Positions 1,762-60,490 of a stretch of DNA of 64,000 nucleotides are shown in pieces; positions within the stretch are counted from its first letter, which is position 1, and the number at the start of each line of letters is the position of its first letter. The notes beneath the pieces were generated by a model. It ran no database searches. It saw only the letters and a program-made list of their open reading frames with translations, and was not told where the DNA came from. The position numbers and the translations under genes were made by a program. Source of the stretch: Chrysomallon squamiferum (lineage: Eukaryota > Animalia > Mollusca); NCBI GenBank assembly GCA_012295275.1, contig CM022665.1:1860001-1924000 (forward strand), read 5' to 3'.

Positions 1762-4204
1762 TGTGTGTGTGTGTGTGTGTGTGTGTATACACACACACAC
1801 ACACACATTCACACACATGTATGTATATGAATATATACACACACAAACTAATAATGCTAATAAAAATAAACATCATGGGATATAGTATGCAGCATCTTGG
1901 CAGTTAACACAATGGTTTTACAATTTGCTGTTCTTATATGCATGTAAGAAAATATTTTGTTACCACTAAAAAAAAAATTAAAAAATCATTGTAAAATGTT
2001 GAAAAGCTGTGTGAACTAATGAACTATCAAATGCCCTGTTATAATTTGAAAATTTGAACATGTACAAATGAGTTTTAAGAGCTGTAGTTCAAATATTTAA
2101 CACCTAGTAATGTAAAGTATACTAATAGATTAAACAGATTTAAGCCAGCAATTTATAGTTTATCCTATCAGTATTTTATTGAAGTCTATCAAAAGCAAAA
2201 CCATCAGTTAGTTTTACTTGTGTTTTAACAGCAGTTGTTTCCATTTTTTTTAAATGAGCAATGATCTACAGAGGTCACTAAGCAAATTATAACTTCAAAA
2301 GTTAGTGTGGCACAATCATTTCTTACATTTTAGAATTCTATTCCATTATACAACAAACTGAACTCATTCACCAATTACTAAACCATTTTCAGTTTAATTT
2401 TAATTAGGGTCTAAAATTCTAAAAGGATCTGAGTTTCAAGTTTTCCAAGAAATCCTGTTTCAACAGATGTCTAAATTTTAATCATCTTTTAAAATTATTA
2501 TTCTAAGACAGAATGACATTCACAATCTGTCAAAGCAAATAACCGGAAGTAATAAATGTCTGACTCTGCCCTGTCAAAATACACTATTTTATATTAGCTG
2601 TTAAAAAGAAAAGAGAAACATACATATTACACCTTTATTTGTAATAATTTTCTCAGAGGAAACCTGTCAGTTTCATACAAATAAGACATTTTGAGAATGA
2701 ACATTCCAAACAATTTACTTAACATTAATTGCATATTTTAAAGACATAGCTAATTTTAGCATGACTTCAGAATAATGTGTGTTTGATCAATAAAGTAATA
2801 TATTTAATCTTTACTAGTGAGCACTGCTAATGCCATAACAAACTCAATTCCAAAAAAATAATCTGGTATCTGAAATCAGTTTCATATATTACCCATATCA
2901 ATCCAAACATACATACATACAAGAACAATATACATAAATATATATCAGCAAATATTCATTTTGTTTTTTTCAAACAATTTACATAAACATTTTACATATA
3001 AACAGATGTTAATAATAAAAACACATGTAGAGCAGGTGTGGTATCAAACATGAATACACTGATTTTCATTATATAACAGCACTATGATTACAGAATGTAT
3101 TCAACAAAGCACTCCATTCTATTGTCAGTAAAACCTGATACGACAATTCCAATTCAAAATACTGTGCATCACAAAAGTATGCTACTTTGATAATGACCCT
3201 TTAAAAAAGAGATTATCAGTTTAAGGTTTATCCTTGTTTTACAAATAACTGAGAAATGGAAAAACAAAAGTAATATTTCGAAATGTACTAATGAATCTTC
3301 ATCCAGAACGAAAATGATATAAAACACTCAGGATTACACTTGTTTCAGTTTTTTAATTTTGTTTTAGTTTAAATCTGACTTTTCTTTCACATCAAAACAG
3401 TTGTGTTTAAAGGAACATGTATTACTTGTGAGAACACAATTTGACAAATCTGAAAAGCACAACACCCACTAACCAAAATGAAAATTCAGAAAAAAAATTT
3501 AAAATTTAAAATTGATCTATCTTTTTCTATTATCTACAAATAGGTACCAAATCATGAGTACAGCTGTTGAAAACAAATACTTAATGTACAATACAAACTG
3601 TGCTCAGTAATAAATTATTTTTGTTTGAAAGCTTGTTAAATGCAAAATCAATTTTTATCACTTTTGTGACCTGACCTATGACAAAAATCTGAATGTTTTC
3701 ATAATGAGACTTGAATTCTGCTTTATTAAAGCATATACCAATCAAATATATGTAAAATAAAATAAATAAATCTTGAATAAAAAACAAAATAATAACATAA
3801 TTAAGTTATGGTGTATTCTGTAAATTGCTGCATTCAGTAAGAAAATAAAGAGTATAAACTAAAGTACTGAGAGTGACTAACATAAATCAGTATTAACAGC
3901 AGCACAGTGAGAGAAATGTTTTTAGTTATTTTTAAACTGGGTCAATTTGATAAAAGTTAAATACAAAATATCTGGAAGATAAGAAATAATAAGACCAAAA
4001 AAAAAAAAAAAATTAAAAATTAAAAACATTTAAAAAACAAACAAAAAAAAAGTAAGAAAAATAAACAAACATTTTGTGCAGACAATTTTATGGAGACAAT
4101 AATAAAAATGCATGGCATCTTCTATTATTCTTTTAAATTAATTTTATTTGATCAAGTATTTACTGCAGTGAAAAATATACCGTCTACAGCCACTGAATTC
4201 ACAT

Positions 4205-7200
4205 TTAGTTAATACTTAAAGTCCAGTCTTCAGCAACATTAACATCAGGTTTCCTAATTGTAAAAACTTTGTTTTCACTGTTAAAAGAATGTCCAAGTTC
4301 TACTGATGAACCATCTGCAAAAAGAAAACAAATGAGCATTTTAATTCTTTACTTTTAAAAAAAATAAAAAATAAAATATTACTGATAATACATTTCTATA
4401 TACTTTAGATAAAATTAAATAATAAAACCAATGCTGAAAGAAAATGAAATTTGTATTTTCAATTTTTTAGTGTAACAAAATTAATTAAATGAAAATGAAC
4501 AGTACATAATTAATCAATTATAAATAATGTACATGATTTAATTCAAAGATCCCTTCAGATTTTATTTTAATCTATTTATTTATTTATTTTTATCATCCCT
4601 CTAGGACCCACATGTAACATTAATGTAATCTGACCTGTGGCCTACAATTGGCAAAAATAAACAAAGTAACCCAAAAAAAGGAAAACTGGTCAGACAAAAA
4701 GAAAAAAGAGTTTGCAAATGGAAAATATTTAAAATGAAAACAGGAACATTAAAAATGGATAGAGAATGTAACACACTTACCTCCTTTTTTAAGTAAAACT
4801 CTACCTGGAGCATTTGTGAAACCAACTATAACAATTTTTTCTATCCATTCTTTTGTTTTATAATTATTATTCTTTGCTAGGTTTCTGTAAAATAAAAACA
4901 CATTTTTATATTTTCTCTTGCTTTTGTTATTAAAGTAATAAAACTTTCAAAGTTATGTTTCAAAATTATTTTTATTACATAAATTTCTGAAGTTCTAAAG
5001 ATAATGTTTATACTTACTTGCTTTCTAAATGATTATTTTCAAAATGTAACTGTCTGTGAATGTATTCTCCATTTTTATAATTGAAAGTTCTATAGTCATC
5101 AACATACAAACTTCCTGAAGCTCTACCCTGAAATTGAAATTGACATAAACTTGATTAGAAAACATGTACATTTTTATAATTACTATTATGGAAATGAAAG
5201 CAATTAAATGTTTATAAATAAAAGAGTAAAGTTTTTTGTTGTTTTTTTAAAACACATTCATGATCAATAAAACAAATCATTCCACAGAAAACTAATTTGA
5301 AATGACATCCAATGACAAATTCATCAGCAGAAAAATGTTTAGATTTGACAATATTTACTTGTTTATCAAGACAGATAATCAGAGTAAATGGATCTTGATA
5401 TGACAGTGTTGCAGATCTTCTTATCCATTTTTTCTAGGTATTATAAATCCACCACGCTGATAAACAGGAATCTGAAATGTCAAGAATAAATTCTTTAATG
5501 TATAGCAGCTCAGTTACTTTTACTTTGTTTCCAGCAAGTGTACGTTTTCTGTTTTTTATTAATATTTTTTTAATCTAACATTTAATTTCATTATACTCAT
5601 TGTTTTTGGTGTGAAAAGCTTTTACTCAAAGAAACATCAAAATGTCAATTGCAAAAAGATTATTAAAAAAGCTAACAATAATTTTAGAACTTTAATTTTT
5701 ATGTAACTGGGTATATTTAATATTACTACAGATAAAGAATTGAAAGGGGAAAAAAATAAAGGAAATTACTAATCATTTAAAAAGTGTGGTACCAGCCCAA
5801 GTGATATTATGTCATTTAGAATTTGTTAACATTACAAACCTTATTAAGAGGTGCCGCTACATTTCTCTCCTCACCTCCAGTAAATCTGTCATAGGTCTGA
5901 ACGTCATACCAAATCTGAAGCACAAAACAGAATCTAACAAAATCTGTCTAACAGAATCAGCAGACAAAATATAGATTTTGTCAGCTATTACATGACTATA
6001 TGTAGTTTTGATCTAAAAATGTTTGATATGTAAGTATTTTAATTGTATTAATTCAACATGGACAATATCTATATTCTGACTAATGTAATTCAAAATATAA
6101 TTATAAAAACTAACCCAATGCAATCATGACAATTAAGAAAGTATTTTAAGAAAACACAACAAACCGTATCAGAGCCAGGGAAATAAACATTTGCTGTTGT
6201 AGCTCCTTGCTCAGTGACAGGCCGAACCAGAAGTGCTGGTCCTAAAATAATATCAAATTTTAATACTTAATGTTCCTCTGAAACCTATCATAGTCATATA
6301 TACATATTTTAATTATCTTTTCAATCACTTTCTAATTTATTTTATTTTTGATCATTATTAATTGTAAAAAAAAATAATGCAATTTTTAGTTACAGATTAA
6401 AAATAATACTTGCTTAAGGATAAAACTAAAATTGTACTTATAAACATTTGACATTTGTTTTGTTTTTTTGTGTTTGATGCACTCACCTAAAAGAAAATTA
6501 TCATCTATTCCAAAAGTAGCAACTTCTTCTGGAAACTCCACCCAAAGTGGCTGCATAATAGGCCTGCCATCTTTTTCAGCTAAATAGAATTCAGTATACA
6601 AATATGGCAACAATGAATATCGAAAACGGATGGCATCCCGAACAATTTTCATATTTTCTTCTGGGAGAAGATATGGTTCTCTTCTCTTTGTGTCCAAATG
6701 AGCATGAGCTCGGAAAAATGGATAAAATGACCCTGCCTAAAAAAAAAAAAAAAAAATAAATAAATAAATAAATAAATACAAAATTATTTGTAAGACTCAT
6801 TATCATTATTTAAAAATAAAAAAATAGTATAAACTTAAACAGCTACTTATCAACAACTAGAAGATGAAATGAATGAATGACCAACAAATTTAATTTTTTA
6901 GATAATAAATTGCAGGAATTTGAATTCAAATCTTATATGTAATGAGGAACAAAAAGTGTGAACAATGATTGAAAAATAACATAAATGATGATACAAACCT
7001 GATACCATCTTGTTTGAAGCTCAGCTTCTGGATTTCTGAAGAAACCCCCAACATCAGCACCAGAAAATGTTATTCCAGCAATATTTAAAGACAGGATCAT
7101 AGGTGTTGCTATTTTTAAATGTGACCACTCTCCCATATTATCACCAGTCCAAACAGCACCTGGATAAATAATCACAATCAAAAGTATTTTTAAAAAAAAG

Positions 7201-10200
7201 AACACAAAATATTAAAAAATATATATATTTGTTTTTAAATGCTATTTTTTAGAAAATTATCAAAGTACCATGAATTTAAATAAACAAATTAATAAATTAT
7301 TCAGCAATTAATTATGGTGTATTTATCTGAAAAACTATCTTATATTTCAGGGACAATATAACCGAAAATAAATACAACAAAATGATTCACGGTCTTGTGT
7401 TTTATAATTATAATTTGAGCTTTAAGAAAAATTATTTGGATATTTAACTTCAACTAATTAATTTATAAATACCATATTTCTGTGAGCCAGCAAAAAATGC
7501 TCGGCTCAAGACAAAAGGCCTGTCTTTTCCCCCAGATCTCTGAATTAACCCATCTGCTGTTGCCTTTTGCTGAAAAGTTTATAAAATACCAAATTTAAAA
7601 TGGCACAAACAAATAATCAACACTATTTTCATCTTAGTTTAGCTAGTTTAATGAAAATCAATTTATTCAATATTTAAATATAGTGAATATACAAAATTAA
7701 GTTTGGAATAAAAACAACAAAGACCTGTATTTTTTCATATTCCTATACAAGAAAAAAATATGTTAAATGGAAATTACATATGTTTAACTGTAATTTATCC
7801 CATCTAACGTGACTTAATCAGAATCTAGTATTTTTCTACTAATCATGTAAGAAATTTAAGTATTATTAATAACCATAAAAAGAAAAAACTAATCTGTGAT
7901 CAGCATTCTTTATTATTATATTTATTTTACTCAAAACTGCACATTAAATTTAAAATAAAAATGAAGGTTCACAAGAAAGACATTGTTAATAATTCCTAGT
8001 TATATTTTAAAAATCGAAAACACCCAACAAAATGAATGGGTGAAGGTATCTAAAGTACTTCCATTTGCACTTGAAATGCACCCATAGTATCATCACTAAT
8101 AACAATGTTAAAGCAGCATCAACTGGAATGAAATCACCAAGGACTATTGACCAAGGGGCCCAGTTTTCTAGGCCAATAAATTAAAATTGGTGCTTTGTTT
8201 ATGCCTATAGCAGGTACAAAAAACTAAATAAATTTAAAACAGAAAATAATTTTTAAACATTTACATTTGCAAAATTTGGAAAGCATTTCCAATTCATTTG
8301 ATAAATAGTATCTCATTTTTTTAAAATCTACAACTTATCACTAACCAATCCAACGATATTTGCTTTTCTTGACATTGGTACTCAAGGATTAATTATAATT
8401 TATTTATATTAACTGCATATTTGCAAGATCTCTAATACACGTTCCTTGTCAATTATGTTAATATATTGTATTCAATCTATCTAAATAGTAAATGAATAAA
8501 AAGAACACACACAAAAAAAATAGTAAAAAATAATAGAGAACAAAACTCCCAAGTTTTAACTTTCATTTGAATCACTGACATTCATTTACATTCTTGCTAT
8601 TAATGAAGTTGTGGTCTTCATGCAGGAAGTTATCAACAACATGCTGTCATTCATAAAACTTATTTTGTACATTAAAAAAAATTAGTAGTAATATAAAAAA
8701 AAATTATCATAAAAGTTAAATCTTTGTAAAAATTGGTAAATGTAAGTGACAAAATATCTACTTTTGTTTTAATGATACATTTAGTTTTTAAATAAAAATA
8801 CTTTCAACAATGCAATTTATAGAATAAATGTGCATAAAACCATCTGAAAGGTTAATATTACATTCTGATCATTTCAGAGCAAAAGATATGCAACAAATTG
8901 CTGAGGAAAAGCACAGGAAGCTGAATGCAAGAAGCACTGGGAAACAAGTCAAAAGAATGTTATTTTAGTGGATTTCTCATTATAAAAAAGTAAGTCTTTG
9001 TCTACAGGCTAAAATACATACCAGCAGGTCTAATCACAAAAACAAACAAATGCTTAACTGAGAAGATCTGGTAATTCAATTTTCATGAGTGTGAAATCCA
9101 AACTGATACATCTTTGTAGCCTTTCAGTAATTATTTGAGTCTGGTGTCAGCAATATCTCATTATTGTATCAAAATGCCAGTTAGTGTAATTTTAGTCACT
9201 CATTTCAAAATATGCTCATTTATGCAAGTAAAATGTTTTTGAAAAATCAGATCAAAGACTGACAATTCCAGTAAAACAACTGCTTTTCAGAAAACTGAAA
9301 AAATAAAATGTGTGCTTTGTGATTTTATGAGATACCTTCACAAATTTAGAAGAGAAAAAAAAACAAATGTGCCAGTAAATTAGATGCTTTGCCAAGGCTA
9401 GTTAGGCTTTAAGCTGCATTATAATGTCCATACCACATATAAACCATACAGATTATGAACATCACGATTTTCCAGGCCATTGTAATGGAGAACATCTTTA
9501 GGAAAAGTAACTTCAGGTCCCTGAAATACTGAGGGTTCGTTCATATCATTCCAAACCCATAGGTCAGGGGTTGAACCTGGATGAACGTCTAGTTCAAACA
9601 TATTAGCCCACCATTTGCGTACCTCAGGATTTAGGAAATCTGGCCAACACGATGTGCCTATAACAATAAAAAAAAGAAGAAAAGCCACTGACTTTGTACC
9701 TACCACATACATTCCATATACATTATGAACATCTCTATTTTCAAAGCCCCGATAATGAATGACATCTTTGTGAAATGTCACCTCGGGACCATTGAAAACT
9801 GATGGTTCATTCATGTCATTCCAGACAAAAAGATCAGGGGTTGCCCCTTGATGCACATCATATACAAATTTGCCTGCCCACCACTGCTGAACTTCTGGAT
9901 TGGTGAAATCTGGCCAAGCTGAGGTACCTAGAATAGTAACAATAATTTATTTTGAACTGAAACATTTTTATCTATGATGGCAAAACGAACTGGTGCACAT
10001 TCTTCCTTATCATTAAAAAAATAATAATAATAATTTCATTACAACCACTACATTAGAAATTATATTTTATTCTGATTTATAAATGCAAGAATTTATCAAC
10101 TGAAACATATTTTCTGCCAAGGAAAAGTGCTGAAACAGTTTGTGAGTATTATAATAAAATTTCTAACCTGGCCAACACCATCCTTCATAATCACTTCCAT

Positions 10201-10699
10201 CTCTATTTTTCACAAAAAATCCTTTAGATCTTGCATCTGTGTAAACTTCATAGGCATCATCTTTTTTCAAATGTGGGTCAACAATTATAACAAGTTTGCG
10301 ACCTTTTGAAGAAAGTTTTCCTATCATCTCTTTGGGATTAGGAAACTTGTCATTTGCCCAGGTGAAATATCTGACAAAGAAATGTTTTAAATTATTTAAA
10401 AACAAATTAGAAAAGGTCCCATTGTTGGAGGGGCATTGTTTTAATATGATCCAATTATATATCCAGTATGATAATATGATTCTTGAATTCTAATGTGTTC
10501 AAAATCAAGCAATTTCACTTGATTAATTTAAAACATATCTTTTCCTTTGTGAAATAAATTTTGTTACCACATAAACAGGAAAAAGTTAGTTTTACCTTTT
10601 GCCATCAGTGTGTTCAATGTCTAGCCACAAAACATCAAAAGGGATATCCACTTTATCCATATTTTCCTCAACTCTGAAATTGGTTTAAAAAATAAATAA

Positions 10700-10730
<31 letters not shown>

Positions 10731-13700
10731 GTCTGTGTTTGAGATATTGCAAATTATCAAAGTTTAAATCTGTGAAATCATTATTTTATAGCTCAAGTTA
10801 TTCCTTTATAAATTAATATCCATGTTCATAAAGTTTCTTGGAGCATTATTGTACTTTATTTTTTTCATTTGTATTAAGATATTGGATACATACGAGGCAA
10901 CATCAGTTTCATCATTGTAATTCCACCTGCACTGATGGTAAGCAATGGAGAACAACTGAAAAATAAAACAGGCACTGTAAGAGCATAATTTAAAACAAAT
11001 GTTATTTGTAAAAAATAATAAATAATTAATTTAAAAAATAAAAGTAATCACAATAAAGCTCAAAGTGAAATAAAAATTAATTATGTGCACATTTTTATAA
11101 AATAAATCTCTGAAACTAAATTTCTTTTTTCTCTTGTTAGTTCTCTAAAAAAGACATTATTTTTGTTCTTTTTATATTTACACTTAATCAAATAACAGTA
11201 AATAAAATGTTAAGTTAATTACAAACTGTTATGTGACTTAGCTTTCTATTATTCATTCTGATTCATTATTTCTACCTCAACAAACCTATAAATAAATTTA
11301 AAAACCAGTTGTTTTTTCTGAGTTTGTTAAATTAACTATTTGAGCAGACCTAATGGTACTTACAGGTGGAAGGGCAGTGGTGCCAGTGAGACGAGCATAC
11401 TGCCGGAACACATCTTTTGGTCGAGGTCCCATCATAACAAACAAATCAATTACTCCACTCTCTGAAAACCAGTGTGTATCAGTCTGTGGGATTTCATTAT
11501 TTCCTTGAACAAAATCAGCCATCTTGGAAAAAATAGTCTGAAATTAAAAAAAATACATTTTGTGTTTGGACAAAAAAATATCTGTACTTTTGAACTTCTG
11601 TTACTAACTACAACAAATGTCAAGTGAAACAGAAAAAATAAAATCATACACAATTTGTGTAAAATGTAACTGAAAAAGAATGAGTTTAGGTTTTAAATAT
11701 TTTTTGGTCTAAACCTGTCTGCAGTAGAAACAGATCATCCGACTGTATACTCATGCTGTCACTTTAGTGTTGCCATGTGGTGTGGTAATAAATGTCAATC
11801 AAACACAGAGTAACAATATTTGTAACTGTTACTTCATGTAAAAACTAAACTTTGACACTAACCTTGTCTGCCACATTAGAACTAATGTCAACCCACGTCT
11901 CAGCAGCATTATGCCAGAAAACACCAACAGTCTGCTTCTCACTATACATTTAGAGAAAATATATTATTCTAAATGTATTATTAATATAAATCCTTTGCAC
12001 TTATTGTTTGTTCAGTTTTAATTTTTATTATTTAGGTTGGAATTATTATGAACCATTTAAAAATCATTGACATACTGTAGATGAGTGGGTGGGTCTTCAG
12101 TGGTATCAACAAAATAATGAAAATATTCTTCAATTTCATTTTTGGTTATAAAGCATTTAAGACCACTAAATATTAACATTTAAAATCCAGTGTTTATTAA
12201 CACTTAAAATCTCAGTAGTATTTGTATTCCCAATATATAATGCTTTGCAGTCACATTAATATGTTAAATCCTGTTTCCTAAAATGTGTGAATATGGAAAA
12301 TCAATTAGGAAAAAGAAAAAACATCTGAAATGAAAGAACTTAAAAAATATAAGAAATACTAACTTGTGAGCAATCATCATTGGCACAGACCCATACAGAG
12401 CCATAGGATTGTAGAGTTCATATTCAAAAACATCAAGGTTAAACAATCTGTATGGATCACCATTTCTGGAAAAAAAACATTTTGTTTCAAGTAACAACAA
12501 ATTAATAAATAGAAAATTAAACATGTCCCAAATTTTTATCATCTTAAAAAGACAACTGTTATCAAATGATCCAAATTAGTTAATGCAGCTGACTGCAGGA
12601 AAGGTTAATACATCTAAAATATTTTAGAATAATGTTCTAAGGAATAAAGAAAACATATGTAGAAATTAAATGGTTTGTCCTTTCTTATGATTAATATGGT
12701 TAAAAAAAACAAAAATAACAAATTATTTATATTATAAAGCAATAAAATGATTCATCGTGCAACTGTAAACATTACTATGACCATGTCATTTTGCAACATT
12801 TAAAGCAAATATCTCTGCAGTATTACAGCCAAGTTTATTCTTTAGAATGAATTCTTACTTTGTAGTTTTCAAAGCTAGTGAATCAGCATGTAATGGAATG
12901 CCATAAACAAACTGGAAACCTGGAAAGTTTATGTCCATTCCAACAGATGTAGGGCCTATAAAAAAAGTTGCAATTTAATAGAAAAATGTATAGAGAATTA
13001 TTTGATATGATATGAAAATGATGTGAGAGAAAAAAAAGATATAAAAAAACAACCTTTACTTTCAATATATATTTTTTACTGCTAAAAAACCCACATAATA
13101 ATAATAGTGTGAACAAAATAATGAAAGCTTATGTAATAATAAGTTTTATTATTATTATTATTTATTTTATTTATTTTTATCTATTTCAGGTAATGTTTTT
13201 CTTCCGAAGGTAATTTTCAAAAATAAAAAAGCTGAAATGCTGACCATTAGGTTTGGAATCTGTAAATGATTTGTAGGTTTCTTCCCACAAGTCTGGTTCT
13301 TCTTTGGGTTTTTCATCTTTATTTTCTTCTTTGTTTTCTTCTTTAACTTCTTGTTTATCTTCTTCCTAGAACAGCAAAAATACATCAGACGCTGTCTTGA
13401 AAGTATAATATTAAATAATTTCAAACAATTTTTAAAAATTATGAATTTCATTTTATGAAACAAAATCTGTAATTGGTATTTTAAAACAATACTGCGAATG
13501 AATCTTTATTTTTGGTCTTAAGCGATAATTAACTGTTAGGCCAGTGGTTAGCACTCAGCACTCTACCTTTTTTTGTATCTTTGTTAACAATTAGAGTAGT
13601 TAAAACTTTAATAATTAATTAAATCATTAATGCAATCAAAATCATTTCAGTTTAATCCATTGATTTTATAATGATTATGAGTTTGCTGGGAATTCCAACT

Positions 13701-15363
13701 TTACTGAATAAGACGTACACAAGCTCTATACTAGGTTTTTCATTTTATATCCTTCTACATAAATGAGGAACTGAATTATCAACAACATACCTTTTTCTCT
13801 GCAGCATCTTCTTCTTCTGTCTTCTGAGGTTCAGGCTCTCGTGAATCTCTGAAAGGTGTGGAAAACCAAGATTTAATTCCAGATCCAATGCTACTGAACC
13901 AGCCCCTACAAAGTGTAGGAAAAATGCTGTTGTTCTTTTAGTTCACCTTAGAAGACATTACAAGGTTTTAATATTTTTGTTCAATACCACAATTATTACA
14001 AAAGAAACAACATCTGTTTACTGAACCTCTTTTAAAGAATAAATCAAAAATGTAATTGAGAAATAAAGAATAGGCTTCATGATCCTTATAATGTTGTACA
14101 TAAAAATGTAAATTATAAGTAACAGATAAAAATACATACGGTTTAATTCTTAAGTGTTCAAATTTGAGAAGACCCAATGCATTTAGACTGACAACCGGCT
14201 TGTCTTCTGAATAGAGGTCAATTTTAAAAGGGTCAGCAGATATTACACCCGTTATATCTTCCATTTTGAATGTAATGCTACGCCTGGAGCTTTCATCAAC
14301 TTTCATCCTGAAAATGACATTAAAATAATGAAATATAAAACTATTATTTTCAGTAAGTTTCTAAGTATAGAATTCACAAACAAGTACTGTTTATAATAAA
14401 TTATTATTTTAAAATAAAATACAAAATGTAACATTAACAGAAATAACATTTACTAACAGTTAAAAAATGCATTCCTTTTTATTGAGCAAACAAAAACAAC
14501 AGAATAAAAAAATTTAAAATTACAGAAGATATGTTCTTTGGCTTTGCTAGACAAACTACTTGATGAAATCAGAAAACATACTTACTCCTGAGGTAAAGGT
14601 TCTTTGGTTAACACCTCTCCATAAGGTATTTCATATCTAAGTTTCAATGGAGAGAGCTCATTGATTTTGAACCTAACTGTTTTGTCCTGAAGACCAAATA
14701 TTTGCAATATAAATTTTTGATCATTTTGTTTATTTATTAACTGTAATTCTATTGATGTGGATGTTGTTCTAAGAGAATTCAACAAAGCTTTATATGATGA
14801 CTGTCCTGCTTCTGTACTTCGCTGGCGTCTGAAAAATATATTTCAGAATAGAGTATACTGTAAATAACCAGAAAAATAAATATATTCAATAATTTATATA
14901 ATGGTATTTTCAAAATGGTGACATATATTAATAACATGTGTATCAAGGCAAAATAAAAAATGTCCAACAGATCTCAATGATTTTCTAAATTTACATCAGT
15001 TATATATATTATTATATTATTATAGTTAGAATTATAACTTACTTGCAGAATCCACTCTGGTCACAAGCTTTAAAGTTATCCCTACTGACAGACAGACACT
15101 GGGACACAAGCATGATCAGGCAAACAGTGAAATGTACAAGAACGTTTTTACTCTGAAGTAGAAAAGAAAGTCTGTTCTAAATATTCAATGACTTCACTAC
15201 AAGATGTTAACCTACTGGTATATTTTTCAACAGGTTTGATTTAATTTACTTAGTCAGTGTATTAGGTATAACGATTTAAAATCATTGTAATGGTATGTTA
15301 AAAACAGGATTACTGTTATTGTGTTACGCACAGACATACTTCTGTTTCGAATGAAGACATCAT
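4205..15363 (-). CDS. GANAB: Neutral alpha-glucosidase AB (ER glucosidase II alpha subunit, GH31), multi-exon
   Basis: Exons in transcription order, all GT-AG with matching phases: 15363-15340 (MMSSFETE, tentative start), 15152-15043 (signal peptide, [14 protein letters not shown]), 14828-14586, 14307-14140, 13905(or 13848)-13791, 13365-13245 ([15 protein letters not shown]), 12955-12859, 12465-12364 ([12 protein letters not shown]), 11941-11863, 11537-11364, 10955-10894 (YHQCRWNY), 10673-10596 (WLDIEH), 10370-10168, [9927-9704 or 9657-9434] ([10 protein letters not shown], nucleophile), 7569-7473, 7159-6999 (WTGDN, acid/base), 6736-6487, 6241-6165, 5914-5840, 5471-5359, 5127-5018, 4884-4781, 4314-4205 (stop TAA). 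One 1-nt frameshift in a homopolymer at 5428-5433. Confidence 0.95.
9434..9657 (-). CDS. GANAB: GANAB duplicated catalytic exon, copy B
   Basis: 224 nt, TAG acceptor and GTATGG donor. Encodes [75 protein letters not shown]. Confidence 0.9.
9704..9927 (-). CDS. GANAB: GANAB duplicated catalytic exon, copy A
   Basis: 224 nt, TAG acceptor and GTAGGT donor. Encodes [75 protein letters not shown]. Confidence 0.9.
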
Positions 15364-24100: not shown

Positions 24101-24701
24101 ACATAATGTGGTTGTTTTCTAATTAGTGTATATATGTTATTGTTTGTTATTTGTTCTTTGTGAGCAACACTGGAATTAAAATGTGTGATTTGAAAAAGTT
24201 GGAAACATCAAAGTTTTCACTGCTCAGGTATATTTTGACTCACTTTGACTGTCAAAATAATCTGGTTTTACAAATTTGATTAATGTGTAACATTATAAGA
24301 ATATAGATTTAACTAACACTAATTATTTTTCAGGAATGCTTCTTGGTGGTGCTTTGGGTTATGGAATGGCAAGACCTTTTGGATTTGGTTGGGGTGGTGG
24401 TTATTATGGAGGCTGGGGGGGTGGTTGGGGTGGCGGGTATCATGACTATGGTCCTGATTACCACATAGAAAATAATTACTACGTGGAAAACACAAACATT
24501 GAAAACACTGAAATCAATGAAACAAATGTGGAAAACAATTATGAAGATGGTCAGGAGTATGATGATGGTGGAGGATATGATGATGGTGGGGGATATGATG
24601 ATGGTGGGGGATATGATGATGGTGGGGGTTATGATGACTTTGGAGGAGGGGATGATTTTGGTGGTGGTTTTGATGGGGGTGATTTTGGAGGTGACTTCTA
24701 A
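20548..24701 (+). CDS. PH-domain protein, evectin/PLEKHB-like, paralog 1
   Basis: Exons 20548-20584, 21015-21059 (LKSGYLKKF), 21580-21695 (SWDPELFVLYQDSTLAWF), 22506-22669, 22801-22828 (SWVEAI, PH C-terminal helix Trp), 23209-23326 (Pro-rich), 23765-23956 (TTVIVQDRDR), 24334-24701 (GMLLGGALGYGM then Gly/Tyr/Asp tail). The layout PH domain, Pro/Tyr-rich linker, VII-basic segment, GMLxGxAxG matches evectins. Confidence 0.85.
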
Positions 24702-34306: not shown

Positions 34307-35646
34307 ATTATGAATAACCCAGTAAAAGGGTTATAAATATGTATATATATATATATAAAAAAAATTTTAAAAACAGTAACAGAAAAAGTAGGAGATTGGG
34401 CCAGTTGGGAATCTGTATTATTATGATTATGTTACTGAAATGTCATTTTTATTGTACCTTTTTTTTTTTAGATTCAGCAGCCACCTCAACAACAGCAACA
34501 GTTGCCACCGCAGCCTTCAAATAGCGCAGTGCCACAGCAACAACAGATACCTCAGTCTACAGTAGCTGCTGCTCGGTACCCACAAGGTGAAAAATACTTG
34601 ACTGACAGATAACTAATTATCAGTGCAAGGGGCGAGGGGTACTTTAAGAGAAAGAGAGAATGTTAGAAAGGCTGTAAATATCTTGTTTTTACGTTTCATA
34701 ATCCCAGTTAATCGAGCATTTTCTGTTTTCTGACAACAGGCAAGCCACACAAACCACAGAAGGTTCGCTACTCAGGAAATCAGAGAGATAATTCATCTCA
34801 CACCGTCATCATTAAAGAGAGACGTCGTTCGAGTGGCAGCAGTGGCGACTTTGCAGCTGGTAGGTATCAATGACGAGACTGTATTTATATTCTGATGTTA
34901 CTTTGATGAAATAATTACCATGTTACTTAACAATTCTAATGCGATAAGACGTAATAATAGTGCTTCTCGTTTGACCAAATGCTGGAGATGACTCGGCATA
35001 ATAGTGATTCACTTTATTATTTTAATCTATCTGTCTGTTGTACATACGCATATAAATTTGTTTTGCAGGCCTCCTCCTTGGCACCGCTTTGAGTGGAGGT
35101 CACATAGGTCCACACTTCGGTTTTGGTCGTGGATGGGGCGGTGACTATTTTGATCACAGATGGGACCACCATCATGGTTATTACGACAATGGACCTGATG
35201 TTCACATAGAAAATAATTACTATTCAAACACCACAAATATTGAAAACACGAACATTAATGAAACTAATGTTGAAAATAATATTGATAGTGAAATTGCTGA
35301 TGAGCAAGTAAATGACGAAGAAGCTATTGAAGGTGACGTAGCTGAAGAGGGTGAGCCAACAGAGGCAGGCGAACCACCTGAGGAAGAATGCGAGCCTCCT
35401 GAGGAAGAATGCGAGCCTCCTGAAGAAGAATGCGAGCCTCCTGAAGAGGAATGCGAACCACCCGAAGAGGAATGCGAACCTCCCGAAGAGGAATGCGAGC
35501 CTCCCGAAGAAGAATGCGAGCCTCCTGAAGAGGAATGCGAGCCTCCTGAAGAAGAATGCGAGCCTCCCGAGGAAGAATGCGAACCACCTGAAGAGGAATG
35601 CGAACCACCTGAAGAGGAATGCGAGCCACCTGAAGAGGAATGCTAA
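29574..35646 (+). CDS. PH-domain protein, evectin/PLEKHB-like, paralog 2 with (EPPEEEC)13 tail
   Basis: Exons 29574-29610, 30481-30525, 31861-31976, 32132-32295, 34019-34046, 34472-34586, 34740-34859, 35069-35646. Exon phases, and the lengths of exons 1-5 (37, 45, 116, 164, 28 nt), are identical to paralog 1. Confidence 0.85.
34249..34330. repeat. Palindrome centred on (TA)n
   Basis: CCCTTTTCCTGGGTTATTCATAATCTTA-(TA)n-TAAGATTATGAATAACCCAGTAAAAGGG; one mismatch. Confidence 0.9.
35371..35643 (+). repeat. Coding 21-bp minisatellite, 13 copies (EPPEEEC)
   Basis: 273 nt = 13 x 21. Only synonymous variation between units. Confidence 0.95.
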
Positions 35647-40921: not shown

Positions 40922-47850
<6,929 letters not shown>

Positions 47851-50971: not shown

Positions 50972-53611
50972 ATATACTCATCACAGTATCTTAACTTATT
51001 ACTACTAATTATTTAATAGAGTGAAAATTCAAGCTGCTTATGTAAATAAAGTTGTGCTGTTCTATATAAATTGAAAAGGTAATATTTTTTTATGAGCATA
51101 AGAAATGTTTTTTTACTTTTTATTAAAAATGTTAGATTCAAGTACGTCATTTGAAAGATCTTGATAAATTGTTCACAACACAGGTTGAATTTGTCAAATA
51201 ACTGATTCCACAGTGTCTATTTGCACTTATAATCATTCTGCCATGTGTCATTTTGAAGATTTCGGCATGTTTAGCATGTTATTGTGAACACACATACAAA
51301 CATACAGATCTGAAAAAAATTGACCTCATTTAGCAAGTTGGTCCAATCACTCTTGTTGATTTTCAGCCTTTTGTGTCAATTACTTTTCAAACTACAGTTG
51401 GCCAAAGTAGCCCTTTCTGCTAATTAGCCAAAATAGGGCTAAAAAACAACCAAATACCTGTCATACCGATTTGCATATATCTTCTGAACCGCTGGAGTCG
51501 TAATTTTTTGTTTGTTTTCATTCTTTTTGCTACAGCTTTCATAATGTGCTAATTTTTTGCATATTATGTGAAATTAAAGTCAGAAAAAATTTGCCTGCCG
51601 GTACCTATCTATAGTAAAATATATGTTTTTTACATTTGTTTTGATTATTATAGTTATTATATTGTAATTATTAATTAAATGCCATGTGTTTTTTTTTCTC
51701 ACTAAATCCAAATAAGGGTTAACATTTTAATAAAATGAAATCCAATTGATGTTTCTTATTTGAATCAGTGATATAATAACTGTTTAAAATTGTCTTTCAG
51801 GTACAATCACTCTAAAGTTTGGAACTCCTTGGGCCATGAGAGATGCCATTAAATTTCTTTATCTGGGCTGTGTGAGGGTTTCCTTAGAAAATGTAAAGGA
51901 TCTTCTTGAAGCTGCTGAATATCTTCAGATATCCGAGTTAAAGAAATGTTGCAGTGATTATCTGTACAGTATAGATCTCACTGTCGATAATTGTGTCAGT
52001 CTTTCCCTGCTGTCCAGTCTGTATGACCTAGAATTGTACAACAAAACATTCCAGTACCTAAGAGGCCACTTGCCTGATGTGATGAATAAAGATGAGATGC
52101 TGGAGCTGACCAAAGACTCCATAATGTCTTTTCTTGTAGATGAAACTCTAACATATGTTCGACAAATAGACTTTTTCAAATTTATTGTTCGCTGGACTAA
52201 TCATGATCTAGAGAAGCGAAAAGGACATTTTTCAGAGTTGTTTACGTCACTGGATCTAAGTAAAATTGGCAAAACACATCTTGAAGAGGAAATAGAATCC
52301 AATGAGCTAGTTGTTAGTGATGAAAAGTGCAAGATCCATGTTCTCAATGTTAAACTGAAACATATGTCAGGTCTTCTTTCTGAAACTTCTGATCATAAAG
52401 AAGTTATTTTGTTGTGTGGTGGCAGTGGCCCAGGTGTTTATATTGGCCACTTTATGCTCCCATTCTCTGATTTTATGGCAGTGAGTAATGTATTTGCATA
52501 CATCGTTGAAGAGAAACGATGGACTGAATTGTCACCACTTCCCTATGCCATCAGGCGTCCAATGTTAATCTGTGATAATGCTGGCAATTTTTATGTGTAT
52601 GACATTTCTCAAAGCTTGGAAGGATCATACATATTTCAGTTTAAGGTTACTGAAAGGACTTGGTCCAGCATCAAGGTGTCATTTCCCAGTAATTGTGAGA
52701 ATGTATCTGTTCAGAGCATGTTGTGTTGTTCTGATCGGATCTTTTTTGTGGCATCAGGAATGGTAAAGAAATCTCGTCAAGGGGGTGCAGCTGCAGCAAG
52801 TAGCAGTCCTCCTCTGTCATGGAGTTGCTTTCTTATGGAGGTCAACCGAGAGGGTAATGAAAGTCAAATATGCTGTAATCTGTTTCCCAGAAATGTGAAC
52901 ACTGAAATCAAAGCATGCGTGTTCAAAAATATGTACATTTGTGTGAGTGGCTGGAAGTGTGGGGAAAAACAGGGAAAGAGTTGCCGATCCAACAGCAGGT
53001 TTATATACTATGATGTCAGACAAGGAAGAAGAAATGATGGGTCCAAAGGCAGCCATTTTGAATCATGTATGCTTCCTTACCAAGATGGAATCCTTATTGG
53101 TAAACCAGGCAAGACCAGTGTGAGAATGTTCTCATTCAGAGACCGCAGATGGAGACTGCAAAGGGATCTTGGTATTCCTTTGCCCCCAGAACATTCAGAT
53201 CGCTCGGACTACTCCTACCTGTGTTACAACGAAGAACTGTACGTCTTTGGAGGGAAAAGTCAAGATACACGGCAGCCTCTGAAGACTGTTTTCAAGTACA
53301 ATCTTGAAAAAAAAATATGGCTGAAGCTGGAAGACATGCCAGAGTCTTTGATGGGAAGTGGAGTTGCTATTGGCCGACTTCCCACAGAACAGGTTTGCTG
53401 TCACATCAACTGTCCACACTGTCAGTACATAACACGACGCAGCCAGGCCACTTATGACATAACATTTTCTGATCCCGATGAAGATGACGACTATTCTTAT
53501 GATGATTATTCCTACGAGTACTCCAATCACTCCTATCTCTGGGATGACGATGATGGTGATGTTGATGATGAGGATTTATTGGAGCCAGGCTATGATTATT
53601 GGGGATACTGA
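49017..53611 (+). CDS. BTB-BACK-kelch (KLHL/KBTBD-like) protein
   Basis: Exons 49017-49142 (FCDVALLIG), 49490-49574 (FKAHWCVLVSCPFFQSLYDSGMKE), 51801-53611 (LLEAAEYLQI, BACK domain, kelch-like LYVFGG...VFKYN...W). Confidence 0.9.
49635..51607. mobile_element. Non-autonomous DNA transposon (hAT-like), ~1.97 kb, in intron 2 of the kelch gene
   Basis: Perfect 13-bp TIR TAGGTACCGGCAG / CTGCCGGTACCTA. Perfect flanking direct repeat TCTATAG (49628-49634 and 51608-51614). No long ORF. Confidence 0.85.
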
Positions 53612-56633: not shown

Positions 56634-58871
56634 TTAAATCATGTACATATTTTTTGTGTTACTCAAACAGTGTGATAGGACTGTTTCGACTGAAATGTTT
56701 TTCAGACGTGCCACTTCAACAGCAACAACAACTGCCATTCCTGGGTGAGAAACAGGCAGTTCATTCCGTGGAACCTGAATTTAAAAAAAAAGAAAAAACA
56801 AAAAACAAAGCTATTAGCAATAATGTCAGCTCAGTATATGTGATATGATATTTACAAATGTGCATATATATTGTAAAGGAAGCAGAACGAAAATTTAATG
56901 TAGAAATAAGATAACGTTTTTCAAAATATAATCATAATGCATAAAATTAAACCATAAATCAATTTCTGCTAATGATAGAACAGATAAAAAGAAAATATTA
57001 TTTACTGTTGAAGGAACAAAGTATGGAGCATCAGTTTCAAGCAACAATTTGTCAAGGGAAATGTTTTGAGCCACCTCCTGGATTGGTTTGGCAGTTGTAT
57101 AAGTGACCAATGGAGTTAACCCAATATACAGATTAGAAAACTTATTCAACCATTTTTTGCAACTGGCATAATTTCCAGTAAAGCAATGTAAATGGATCTT
57201 GTAATTTGTTGGAACAATCTGAAAAAATAATAAAATAAATAAATAAATGAATGAATGAATGAATTTTATTTATTTATTTTCAGTGTTTGTAAAAAATTAA
57301 ATTTTTATTAATTCTTACAGTCAGCAAGGATGTTTCTGATAAATTATTTTTTGTTCTAGTGTATGTTATTTACAATGTGTTAAATAAACACTAACATTGT
57401 AACTATATAACTAAGTTCACCAACTGTCACATAAAAAAAGCGAATTCAAAAAAAAAAAAAAAAATAATAATAATAATAATAAAATACCCTCAATGAACAA
57501 TTAACTTAATACCAATATTTTACCTTGTATTTTTTTAATGTCAAAATAAAAAATTACAAGAATGTGTCATTAACTTAAACTATTTGTTTTTTTAACCAAA
57601 CTATTTTTTGTTTTCAGCCAATACAAGAAAAGAAAAGCTAAGCAGTTCAATTTACCTTTTCCATTATCTTCAGACAGTCATTTTCTGCATCTCTGCAATG
57701 GATCACAATTGGTTTTTTTACTTCTATAGCAAACTTCAGTTGTTTGATGAAGACAGATTGCTGGACTTCCTTATGCTGATAAAACCTTTTAATAACAACA
57801 GTCAGTTTATACTTGTTATTTCACTTGCTAAATTTCACCAATTCAAACATTTCAGGACTTTTTTTTATAACGAAAAATTATTTCAGTGTTGCTTTTCTTA
57901 TATAAAAGCATACAGACTGATTTGTTCAAACCATAACAATTGAAACAGTCACCTGATAGGAAACAGAAACTTTTAATATATTTATTTTTGTTTTTAAAAT
58001 ATCTGAAATTGTAAACAATAAATCACATCAAAAATAAAATTTGAAGTAGTTTTCTTTCTTACGTTCCAGAATAGTCAAGGCCAATTTCTCCAACAGCAAC
58101 AACTTTGGGATGCTGAACACAAATTTTCAAATTATTAAATAAGGTGTCGTTTAATCGAAAGGCATGCTTTGGGTGGCAACCCATTGCAATGTAAATAGTT
58201 GACTTGATGTCCATCACAAGGTCAAACCAGAGACCCTCTTAAATAAAAATTTATAAAATGAAATTATATATTACAAAAACAGTTTGACAGTGTGATAGAC
58301 TGGGTTATGATTAACTAGTCTGTTTTGGAAATTAGACAAACATTTCAACTCTTCATTGTATTTTATCAGTACTTTAGATTGTCATTTTGAAAAAGGATTC
58401 AGAAGAACAAAAATGCTCATTTTTATTAAATTGTATACATCTGAAAAACTCTTTGATTAAATAAAATTGTCTAGACTCACCCTGAGGTATAAATGAAGCA
58501 GGGTTGCAGAACACAGCTATGCAGCCAGAGAAGTTTTCAGGAAATGTCTCTTTATTCTGTTGCCTGAAATTTTCAAATGTACCCTGAAAATGAACTCTAT
58601 CAAACAGAAAATCAAGATGACAATGAGAATCAATAAATGGCATAGAAAATCCACAAAATTTTCTTTTGAATTTTTCCTTCCAGTCAAAAGGTGGTGAACT
58701 GGGAGATGTGTTATCATGCAATCTATAACCAAAAGAACTGGAATCTTGTAGATTCATCTTTTCAAATTTATTAAATAAAGAACACATGTTCTTTGATTCT
58801 GAAAACTTTCTTGTGCATTCCACTGGAGCTATACATGTTGTTGTAGGAGATGTGGATTCCCTGTCAGACAT
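56634..58871 (-). CDS. TatD-family nuclease (TATDN2-like)
   Basis: Intact exons: ...58871-58481 (FIDSHCHLDFL), 58237-58063 (GCHPKHA, GEIGLDY), 57785-57656 (VIHCRDA), 57218-57006 (HLHCFTG, LLETDAPYF), 56774-56634 (SHPG, stop TAA). The start is uncertain; the first ATG after the last upstream disruption is at 58871. Confidence 0.88.
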
Positions 58872-60490
58872 TAATTCACTCTGAGAGAAAAACACAGCTT
58901 TTTCTTCTAAACTACATGCTGGTATTGATTCTGATGGGCTAAATGTTCTTGAAGATATATTGTTAGACTGTTAATTAATTTCAGTATTTAACACATGTTT
59001 TGAAATAAGATCACTGGAGATGTATTTTGAAGTGTCTTTAGGCTGATGTTCAGCAATATAAGAGTAGGGATAGAAATTTGGATAAATTTCTACCTGGATC
59101 AACACATGAATAATGAATGTCTGGTTCAGTTTTCTCTACTCTAGTACAATCTTCACATGCAATATCAGATTTACTGTTCCTATGAGTCATGGTTTCCCTA
59201 ATATTAAGATCCACAGCAGTCTTTTTCCCTTTAGTATTAGTGAGATCCACTAATACTTTCTTCACTGAGAATGTTATCTATATTTCTGCACGATATCTTT
59301 AAATGAGGTTCAGTCTCTACACTCCTGTGATCCCCTGCAGTTTCTGTTTCAGTATCATTTGTATTGTCAGCCTGTTTCTGAAATAAATTTTCAGATAAAT
59401 AAGTGTCATCAAAATCTAAAAACAAAACAACATTTAAAATCAAAATTGTTGATCAATTCATGTTAGTGAGAAAATCTATATTATTGACAGATGCATACAT
59501 TGTTCATCAGTAATATAAATCTCTATTATTATCTGTATTTTAAAACAGTTGCTTGAAATAACGCATGTTAGATGATGAGAAAAATATGTGGCAAATAACA
59601 GAAATTACATTTCTGATCAATTGGAAATCTTACTTTAAACAAGAATGTAAAAGCCATTTTTCTTTTTGAAAAAGGATGAAGCTATATTAAATTCTTACTG
59701 CGATGTTGCAACTGATACACTTGTCTTTGAACAGAATTATGAGGTTCACTTTGATATAGATCACCCCCCAATGATATGGGATGGTTCAGAAGGTGCTGAT
59801 CTGGATTTCAGTCTCAAAGTTACAAAAACAAAATCTATCTGAAAAGACATATTGATTAATAATTAAATACAGTTCATACACAGCTTTCTTGGAAATACTG
59901 TCATTTTATTTAATGCGTTTTCTTCTCAAAACTCACTACTAAAAGGATTTCCTCATCAATGTTGCCAACCATGAATATGTTCTTGAATAACAATTAATTT
60001 TTCAAATAATTTAAGAAGTGACATCATTCAAACTTTATTCAGAGATTTGTGTATTTCTAACCTATTCGATTTTCAAAAAAGTTTCAGAACGACCTTGCTG
60101 AAATTCAATAATTCAAACACTTATATCTACAAGAAATATATTTTATTTTCCAACAAAGTGTGGTTAAAATCTTGCTGATAAACAATTTTCTTAAATTATG
60201 TTCAACAATTGTATATTTGCTCCTCCTGTATTGACAAAAATGTGATTTTTGGCTTTTTCCATCTTTGATGAATATTATCATCTTCCAAACAACTACAATT
60301 TGTACTATATCATTAACAAAAATGTTTGTGAAAACAGATTAAAATTCATTCTGGTAACATGTAAATTAATTAATAGTTGGATCTATCAGTTCTTAAGTTC
60401 ACTATTTTTGTTCTGGAATTCATTTATTTTCTGTTAAATACAAATTAATGTAGTTTTTAAGAACATTATTTTCTGAACTCCCAATTTCTG
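58872..60490 (-). pseudogene. Disrupted N-terminal exons of the TatD gene
   Basis: The exon starting at acceptor 59415 has two frame changes and an in-frame TAA at 58973-58971. Exon-like segment 59838-59699 is closed in all three frames unless one base is removed. Confidence 0.5.

What the first reader, a model, noticed from the sequence alone, without database searches (positions are those of the whole stretch)
9434..9927. Mutually exclusive duplicated exon carrying the catalytic nucleophile of glucosidase II alpha
Seen: two homologous 224-nt exons (9927-9704 and 9657-9434), both open, with the same phases (1 in, 0 out) and intact splice sites. Each encodes [10 protein letters not shown]. 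They differ at many synonymous positions and at residues near the active site (SAW/SCW, FVWND/WVWND, FNG/FQG, FHKD/FPKD). The gap is only 46 nt, and splicing A to B would shift the frame (224 mod 3 = 2). Established: a very short donor-to-branchpoint distance and frameshift/NMD are both known ways of enforcing mutually exclusive splicing. Inference: one gene makes two catalytic variants of an essential ER glycoprotein quality-control enzyme, possibly differing in substrate preference or pH optimum. I know of no such arrangement in vertebrate GANAB.
Basis: partly seen in the sequence, partly recalled or inferred. Interest (0 to 1): 0.85.

Follow-up and report, generated by a model that had tools for sequence, protein, structure and literature searches.

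The report
Swappable catalytic exon in snail glucosidase
In this snail, a relative of the vent snail Gigantopelta, the gene for the sugar-trimming enzyme that times protein folding carries two old, diverged copies of its catalytic exon, both used in RNA and also seen in a second genome, so it likely makes two working versions of an enzyme whose catalytic exon is single in the other animals checked.

Summary
Confirmed and extended. Exons A (9927-9704) and B (9657-9434) are 224-nt homologues (56/74 aa identical; synonymous sites near saturation, pN/pS about 0.2) inside a glucosidase II alpha gene whose closest named relative is Gigantopelta aegis. RNA contigs of 4 runs (one study) join the upstream exon to A and to B in 4 of 4, B to the downstream exon in 4 of 4, and A to it in 1 of 4. 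None splices A to B. A second, unnamed Gigantopelta-like genome carries the same A-spacer-B tandem (35-nt spacer) and six shared B-specific residues, so the pair is old and conserved. All mapped catalytic and second-shell residues are identical in A and B; the differences lie on the pocket-rim subdomain and in the barrel. The 46-nt gap is in frame, and 3 of 4 runs read through it from A; the relative's spacer is out of frame. Best reading: sterically enforced mutually exclusive exons giving two active, fine-tuned isoforms. No functional difference is shown. A new member of a known kind, not found in print for this enzyme (10 searches).

The parts
9704..9927 (-). Exon A, 224 nt: conventional copy of the GH31 nucleophile exon (end of subdomain B2, nucleophile strand, all of subdomain B3)
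   Evidence: joined to the upstream exon in 4 of 4 RNA runs and to the downstream exon in 1 of 4; 60/74 aa to Gigantopelta aegis
9815..9817 (-). Nucleophile Asp codon in exon A (human D542, Chaetomium D556)
   Evidence: ungapped alignment to PDB chains; D556 named as nucleophile in PMC4742823
9658..9703 (-). 46-nt spacer intron, GT..AG, with B's polypyrimidine tract. Every candidate branch adenine lies under 46 nt from A's donor. In frame and stop-free if retained
   Evidence: the other 20 introns of the gene model are 133-1864 nt (one search lists 22 introns; its first, with an uncorrected boundary, is left out); homologous 35-nt spacer in a relative
9434..9657 (-). Exon B, 224 nt: derived copy with K14, L22, W33, Q45, P52, L56 shared with the relative's B copy
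   Evidence: joined to both flanking exons in 4 of 4 RNA runs
9545..9547 (-). Nucleophile Asp codon in exon B
9521..9523 (-). Q45 codon in B, next to the pocket-rim Phe (mouse F571); Asn in 139 of 159 distinct homologous cores, Gln only in the relative's B copy
10168..10370 (-). Common upstream exon (203 nt, ends in the WCWP motif)
7473..7569 (-). Common downstream exon (97 nt)
6999..7159 (-). Exon carrying the WTGD motif (acid/base Asp of GH31; role recalled and consistent with D633 in PMC4742823), shared by both isoforms
4204..15152 (-). Whole GANAB / glucosidase II alpha gene model, 23 exons counting both copies; start-codon exon not located
   Evidence: 671/820 aa (82%) identical to G. aegis isoform X1 up to the frameshift in exon 5471-5359

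Best explanation
The glucosidase II alpha gene of this Gigantopelta-related snail carries two diverged copies of its nucleophile exon, both joined to the same upstream exon in RNA, and the 46-nt spacer likely blocks splicing of one copy to the other, so the gene likely makes two active enzymes predicted to differ only in fine tuning at the pocket rim. Shown: the tandem, the junctions, purifying selection, and the same arrangement in a second genome. Inferred mechanism: B's branch point sits within 46 nt of A's donor, under the roughly 50-nt limit for assembling both spliceosome halves, so the spacer cannot be removed. The upstream donor picks A's acceptor or B's. When it picks A, A's donor jumps to the downstream exon. 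Joining both copies or skipping both shifts the frame and would be cleared by NMD. When A is picked but B's donor is used, the spacer stays in: in this species that RNA is in frame and is probably a by-product; in the relative it is out of frame. Inferred function: both proteins are retaining alpha-1,3-glucosidases with the same catalytic residues, and B's changes in subdomain B3 (Q45, P52, L56) and at W33 shift rates or stability rather than chemistry.
For: Junctions upstream-A 4 of 4, upstream-B 4 of 4, B-downstream 4 of 4, A-downstream 1 of 4; no A-B spliced joint and no skip-both joint in 4 of 4. pS 0.75, pN 0.16, pN/pS 95% interval 0.13-0.34; 40 of 64 differences at third codon positions. 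P0244 and P0246 (unnamed ENA contigs) fit one DNA read in two frames over 42 of 42 overlapping residues (best of 60 control fragments: 6), giving A-type exon, 35-nt intron, B-type exon. That intron aligns with the window's gap better than 1999 of 2000 shuffles; the relative's A end matches window A at 44/49 nt against 38/49 for B, and its B start matches window B at 26/39 against 19/39 for A. The two B copies group at 97/92 support and share six diagnostic residues. All 13 columns invariant in 147 of 147 distinct homologous segments are kept in both copies. Steric threshold of about 50 nt from passages of PMC7969005.
Against: All RNA comes from one study and from assembled contigs, which show presence, not absence. 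The A-downstream joint rests on one contig with 24 letters on the short side, under the tool's 31-letter bridging rule. In 3 of 4 runs the A contig continues through the gap instead. AU tests did not reject separate duplications in each species (p 0.39 and 0.36). The three annotated G. aegis isoforms all carry the A type. No branch point was mapped and no consensus branch motif was found in the gap. No protein or enzyme data exist. W33 and P52 occur in ordinary orthologues elsewhere.
Confidence: 0.7

Rival explanations
1. Both exons are used and kept by selection, but the two proteins are functionally equivalent. Each copy is held only because a fixed share of transcripts includes it and would otherwise give a dead enzyme.
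For: All mapped catalytic and second-shell residues are identical. Of the 18 differences, many swap between residues common in homologues. W33 occurs in 5 of 159 and P52 in 57 of 159 distinct cores.
Against: Q45 is found in only 1 of 159 other cores, the relative's B copy, and six B-specific residues are shared by two species whose B copies otherwise differ at 16 of 74 positions. Shared ancestry alone could also explain this.
Confidence: 0.2
2. In this species B is the working exon and A is giving way. A-containing RNA mostly keeps the 46-nt gap and encodes an in-frame protein with two nucleophile segments and a hydrophobic linker, which is degraded or acts as a brake on expression.
For: A contigs run through the gap in X1, X2 and X3, while the intron upstream of A has almost no cover; the upstream-B joint is deeper than upstream-A in 4 of 4 runs (11.5/4.8, 10.4/5.9, 13.4/5.3, 7.2/4.8; contig depths, a poor measure). 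The retained form has no stop.
Against: X4 shows upstream-A-downstream on one contig. A is the better conserved copy (60/74 to G. aegis; short branch). The relative's spacer is out of frame, so the doubled protein is not conserved. Other intron pieces are covered at depth 4-5, so unspliced RNA or DNA is present.
Confidence: 0.08
3. The second copy is an assembly duplication or a decaying pseudo-exon.
For: The assembly has at least one likely error in this gene (a one-base frameshift in exon 5471-5359). No independent DNA run was laid on the tandem.
Against: The copies differ at 65 of 224 nt. RNA contigs cross the A-gap-B boundaries with no or one other letter. Selection is purifying. A second genome has the same tandem.
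Confidence: 0.02

Closest known systems
Glucosidase II alpha (GANAB, GH31; PDB 8D43, 5F0E, 5DKX)
   Same: Best solved-structure matches of both exons (E about 1e-30 to 1e-31 for the mammalian chains); same WNDMNE motif and second-shell residues.
   Different: No annotated isoform of the 10 mollusc clusters examined differs in this segment. Known vertebrate GANAB splicing affects a non-catalytic exon in the N-terminal part (recalled, not checked).
coq-2 exons 6a/6e of helminths, molluscs and annelids (PMC7434440; abstract and section 5 read)
   Same: Equal-length mutually exclusive exons in an enzyme core, with a few invariant isoform-specific residues near the substrate site.
   Different: There the switch is shown to control which quinone is made and is spread over several phyla. 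Here no functional change is shown and the pair is seen in two related snail genomes only.
OGDH exons 4a/4b (PMC7969005; passages read)
   Same: Duplicated exons kept apart by a branch point under about 50 nt from the upstream donor.
   Different: OGDH uses distant branch points in a longer intron and switches calcium sensing. Here the whole intron is 46 or 35 nt and the exon carries the catalytic nucleophile.
KHK duplicated exons (PMC9741552) and fly CG42249 (PMC7954323); passages read
   Same: Homologous exons that hold catalytic residues. [quoted passage not shown]
   Different: Different enzyme families. Such events are rare: 9 affecting catalytic sites in PMC7954323. Neither main text contains the word glucosidase (supplements not read).

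Membership tests
Glucosidase II alpha (GANAB orthologues, GH31) | GH31 TIM-barrel domain (PF01055) | tested here: met
   Both exons score 57 and 55.8 bits against a cut-off of 23.5
Glucosidase II alpha (GANAB orthologues, GH31) | WiDMNE nucleophile motif with Asn at the variable position | tested here: met
   Present in A and B; motif defined in PMC4742823
Glucosidase II alpha (GANAB orthologues, GH31) | Full-length colinearity with named orthologues | tested here: met
   tblastn of G. aegis X1 covers residues 3-954 in order; 82% identity over 820 aa; one frameshift in exon 5471-5359
Glucosidase II alpha (GANAB orthologues, GH31) | Signal peptide and ER location | tested here: inconclusive
   First exon found encodes a hydrophobic stretch aligning to residues 3-35 of the orthologue; start codon not located
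Glucosidase II alpha (GANAB orthologues, GH31) | Alpha-1,3-glucosidase activity on Glc2/Glc1Man9 and binding to the beta subunit | not testable with these tools
   Needs enzyme assays
Homologous mutually exclusive exons (tandem duplicated exon substitution) | Adjacent homologous exons of the same length and phase with intact splice sites | tested here: met
Homologous mutually exclusive exons (tandem duplicated exon substitution) | Each exon is spliced to both common flanking exons | tested here: met
   B: both joints 4 of 4 runs. A: upstream joint 4 of 4, downstream joint 1 of 4 with only 24 letters on the short side; weak for A
Homologous mutually exclusive exons (tandem duplicated exon substitution) | The two exons do not occur together in mature RNA | tested here: inconclusive
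   No spliced A-B joint in 4 of 4 runs, but contigs cannot show absence, and 3 of 4 runs hold A, gap and B start unspliced
Homologous mutually exclusive exons (tandem duplicated exon substitution) | An enforcing mechanism (steric limit, NMD or RNA pairing) | tested here: inconclusive
   Geometry fits the steric limit (46 and 35 nt) and spliced A-B is out of frame; branch point not mapped; no convincing docking-site pairing among the 25 shown of 44 AT-rich inverted repeats
Homologous mutually exclusive exons (tandem duplicated exon substitution) | Both copies conserved under purifying selection across species | tested here: met
   pN/pS about 0.2; second genome with A and B orthologues at 58/74 each
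Homologous mutually exclusive exons (tandem duplicated exon substitution) | Both isoforms are translated; regulated by tissue or stage | not testable with these tools
   No proteomics; RNA from one study, contigs only

The most novel reading that the evidence does not exclude
Vent snails of the Gigantopelta lineage evolved, by splicing alone, a second glucosidase II whose pocket rim (Q45 beside the +1/+2-site Phe, with W33, P52, L56) resets the rate of the second glucose trim or widens its alpha-glucoside range. One gene would then set two glycoprotein-folding timers, or add a digestive role in symbiont-bearing tissue. In this species an in-frame A-spacer-B protein could be a third, regulatory product.
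Probability: 0.2. Interest if true: 0.75.

Novelty: new member of a known kind. Interest (0 to 1): 0.5.

Why it matters
Glucosidase II sets the time window of the calnexin/calreticulin folding cycle, and its catalytic core is treated as fixed. A pair of natural core variants, kept since before two snail lineages split, offers a ready-made test of which rim residues set the fast first and slow second trimming step. It also adds a rare case of a catalytic residue inside a mutually exclusive exon, enforced by one of the simplest possible devices, an intron too short to splice. Annotation matters too: G. aegis RefSeq lists only the A type, so a B exon may be hidden there.

Tried and rejected
No whole genome is held for this window, so paralogues elsewhere in the genome were not checked. 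A third or decayed exon copy in the window: none (tblastn and blastn). Annotated isoforms: 56 listed members of 10 mollusc clusters (of 96 members; 4 lacked the segment) show no within-species difference in this segment; this is absence of annotation, not of the exon. Competing RNA pairings: 44 inverted repeats, 25 shown, AT-rich and unconvincing. Branch-point consensus scan of the gap: no hit. The first tree, without the relative, put A with G. aegis (93/78) and did not reject an A+B clade (p 0.15). P0121 (sturgeon, flagged as contaminated) has two identical copies of the segment and was set aside as a likely assembly artefact. The in-frame retained-gap protein as a conserved feature was rejected because the relative's spacer is 35 nt. 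No structure was predicted, so the placing of residues rests on alignment to published numbering. Earlier findings of the scan: nothing.

Full report
Observation. On the minus strand, 9927-9704 (A) and 9657-9434 (B) are both 224 nt, AG-bounded upstream and GT-bounded downstream, and open in one shared frame. They match at 159 of 224 nt and 56 of 74 aa, and are separated by a 46-nt GT..AG spacer. Both carry the GH31 nucleophile motif, score above the Pfam PF01055 cut-off and match mammalian glucosidase II alpha best among solved structures. They sit in a 23-exon gene model from 15152 to 4204 that follows Gigantopelta aegis isoform X1 in order and is 82% identical to it over 820 aa. G. aegis was the top full-length, single-copy hit for both exons (81% to A, 73% to B). 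The window is therefore inferred to come from a related gastropod; the species was not identified.

Both copies are under selection. Of 64 nucleotide differences in the 74 codons, 40 are at third positions. pS is 0.75, near saturation, and pN is 0.16 (pN/pS 95% interval 0.13-0.34). Random placement of 64 changes never gave as few as 18 amino-acid changes in 20000 trials. All 13 columns invariant across 147 distinct homologous segments are kept in both copies. This rules out an assembly duplicate and a neutral pseudo-exon.

RNA. Five public runs hold the stretch; four are RNA, from one study, kept as contigs. I laid those four. The upstream exon joins A in 4 of 4 and B in 4 of 4. B joins the downstream exon in 4 of 4. 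A joins it in 1 of 4 (X4, one contig running upstream-A-downstream, 31 and 24 letters on the sides, so under the tool's 31-letter rule on one side). No run shows A spliced to B or both skipped, but contigs cannot prove absence. The upstream-B joint is the deeper in all four (contig depths 7.2-13.4 against 4.8-5.9), a rough hint that B is the larger share here. Against a clean picture, in X1, X2 and X3 the A contig runs on through the spacer towards or into B. The intron upstream of A has almost no cover, but other intron pieces reach depth 4-5, so this may be partly spliced RNA.

A plus spacer is 270 nt without a stop, so the retained form stays in frame. Spliced A-B stops at codon 601 and skip-both at codon 556. 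NMD would thus guard those two errors but not retention.

A second genome has the tandem. A search with the A-spacer-B frame returned P0244 and P0246, unnamed proteins called on ENA contigs of 16 and 160 kb; P0351, on a 152-kb contig, repeats P0244 with a longer start. P0244 holds an A-type exon, 67/74 identical to G. aegis and 58/74 to window A. P0246 holds a B-type exon, 58/74 to window B. The tail of P0244 and the head of P0246 fit one DNA in two frames over all 42 overlapping residues; 60 control fragments reached at most 6. This gives A end, 35-nt intron, B start. The DNA itself could not be fetched, so this is a reconstruction from proteins. The intron aligns with the window's spacer better than 1999 of 2000 shuffles, and the recoverable exon ends pair A with A (44/49 against 38/49) and B with B (26/39 against 19/39). 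The two B copies group at 97/92 and share K14, L22, W33, Q45, P52 and L56; the five snail rows form one clade at 95/90 apart from abalone, limpets and bivalves. AU tests on these 74 columns did not reject independent duplications (p 0.39, 0.36). One duplication before the two lineages split is the simplest reading. For scale, the two sequenced peltospirids split 66 Ma (PMC7736800) or 116 Ma (PMC7895826) (passages); applying this to the window is inference. The 35-nt spacer is out of frame, so the in-frame retained form is not conserved. The three annotated G. aegis isoforms are all A type, and no species among 56 listed members of 10 mollusc clusters has two versions of the segment.

Mechanism of exclusion. 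The other introns of the gene are 133 nt or longer. Any branch adenine in a 46- or 35-nt intron lies under the roughly 50-nt donor-to-branch limit described in PMC7969005 (passages). Steric exclusion is therefore likely; the branch point was not mapped and no consensus motif was found. No convincing RNA pairing was seen. What chooses between A and B is unknown.

Effect on the enzyme. The exon maps without gaps to Chaetomium residues 520-593 (offset fixed by the nucleophile D556). By PMC4742823 (parts 1 and 2 of 4 read) this covers the end of subdomain B2, the nucleophile and all of subdomain B3, both parts of the pocket. D556 and the second-shell E559, S561 and F563 are identical in A and B; the other named substrate contacts lie in other exons. 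The B-specific Q45 is next to the Phe equal to mouse F571, which lines the +1/+2 subsites (PMC12732852, passages). Gln occurs there in 1 of 159 other distinct cores, the relative's B. W33 occurs in 5 of 159, including named beetle orthologues, and P52 in 57 of 159, so these two are compatible with ordinary function. Both isoforms are likely active, and any difference is likely one of rate or stability.

Comparison and novelty. Homologous mutually exclusive exons in enzymes are a known kind: coq-2 (abstract and section 5), OGDH, KHK (passages), and 9 events touching catalytic sites in PMC7954323 (passages). Ten literature searches (listings and abstract starts seen) gave no report of this in glucosidase II or another GH31 enzyme. 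The two vent-snail genome papers searched do not contain the word glucosidase in their main text. PMC6583763 was seen as one passage only. Supplements were not read and could list such an event; subscription papers are outside the library.

Verdict. Real, expressed, old and conserved in two related snail genomes; a new member of a known kind.

Noticed in passing
window 5471-5359 (-), near 5427: One-base frameshift in a run of A in a late exon of this gene; both isoform models stop at codon 829. Likely an assembly error in an essential gene; not checked against reads.
   Followed up: partly
window 13905-13791 (-): Exon in the flexible N-terminal insert (subdomain B1 region). Its first half is present in G. 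aegis X2, abalone X1 and chiton proteins but absent from oyster X2 and Solemya, so it may be alternatively spliced, like the optional vertebrate GANAB exon (recalled).
   Followed up: no
P0121 (sturgeon record flagged as contaminated): Two identical tandem copies of the same nucleophile segment in one predicted protein; likely an assembly duplicate.
   Followed up: partly
P0269, P0273, P0276 (unnamed contigs): Read-through ORFs show an extra intron in the middle of this segment in other animals, so the single 224-nt exon is not universal.
   Followed up: no
window 24291-24701 (+) and 35056-35646 (+): Two related Gly/Tyr-rich then acidic ORFs, one with a short Gly-Tyr-Asp repeat and one with about 15 copies of a 7-residue Pro/Glu/Cys repeat; no Pfam match. 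They look like secreted structural proteins.
   Followed up: partly
window 51788-53611 (+): Long uninterrupted ORF (607 aa) with BTB, BACK and Kelch domains.
   Followed up: partly
window 56895-58970 (-) and 40922-43208 (-): Exons of a TatD DNase gene (PF01026 on 56895-57269) and of a deaminase-like gene (weak PF14437 hit on 40922-41326, below cut-off).
   Followed up: partly
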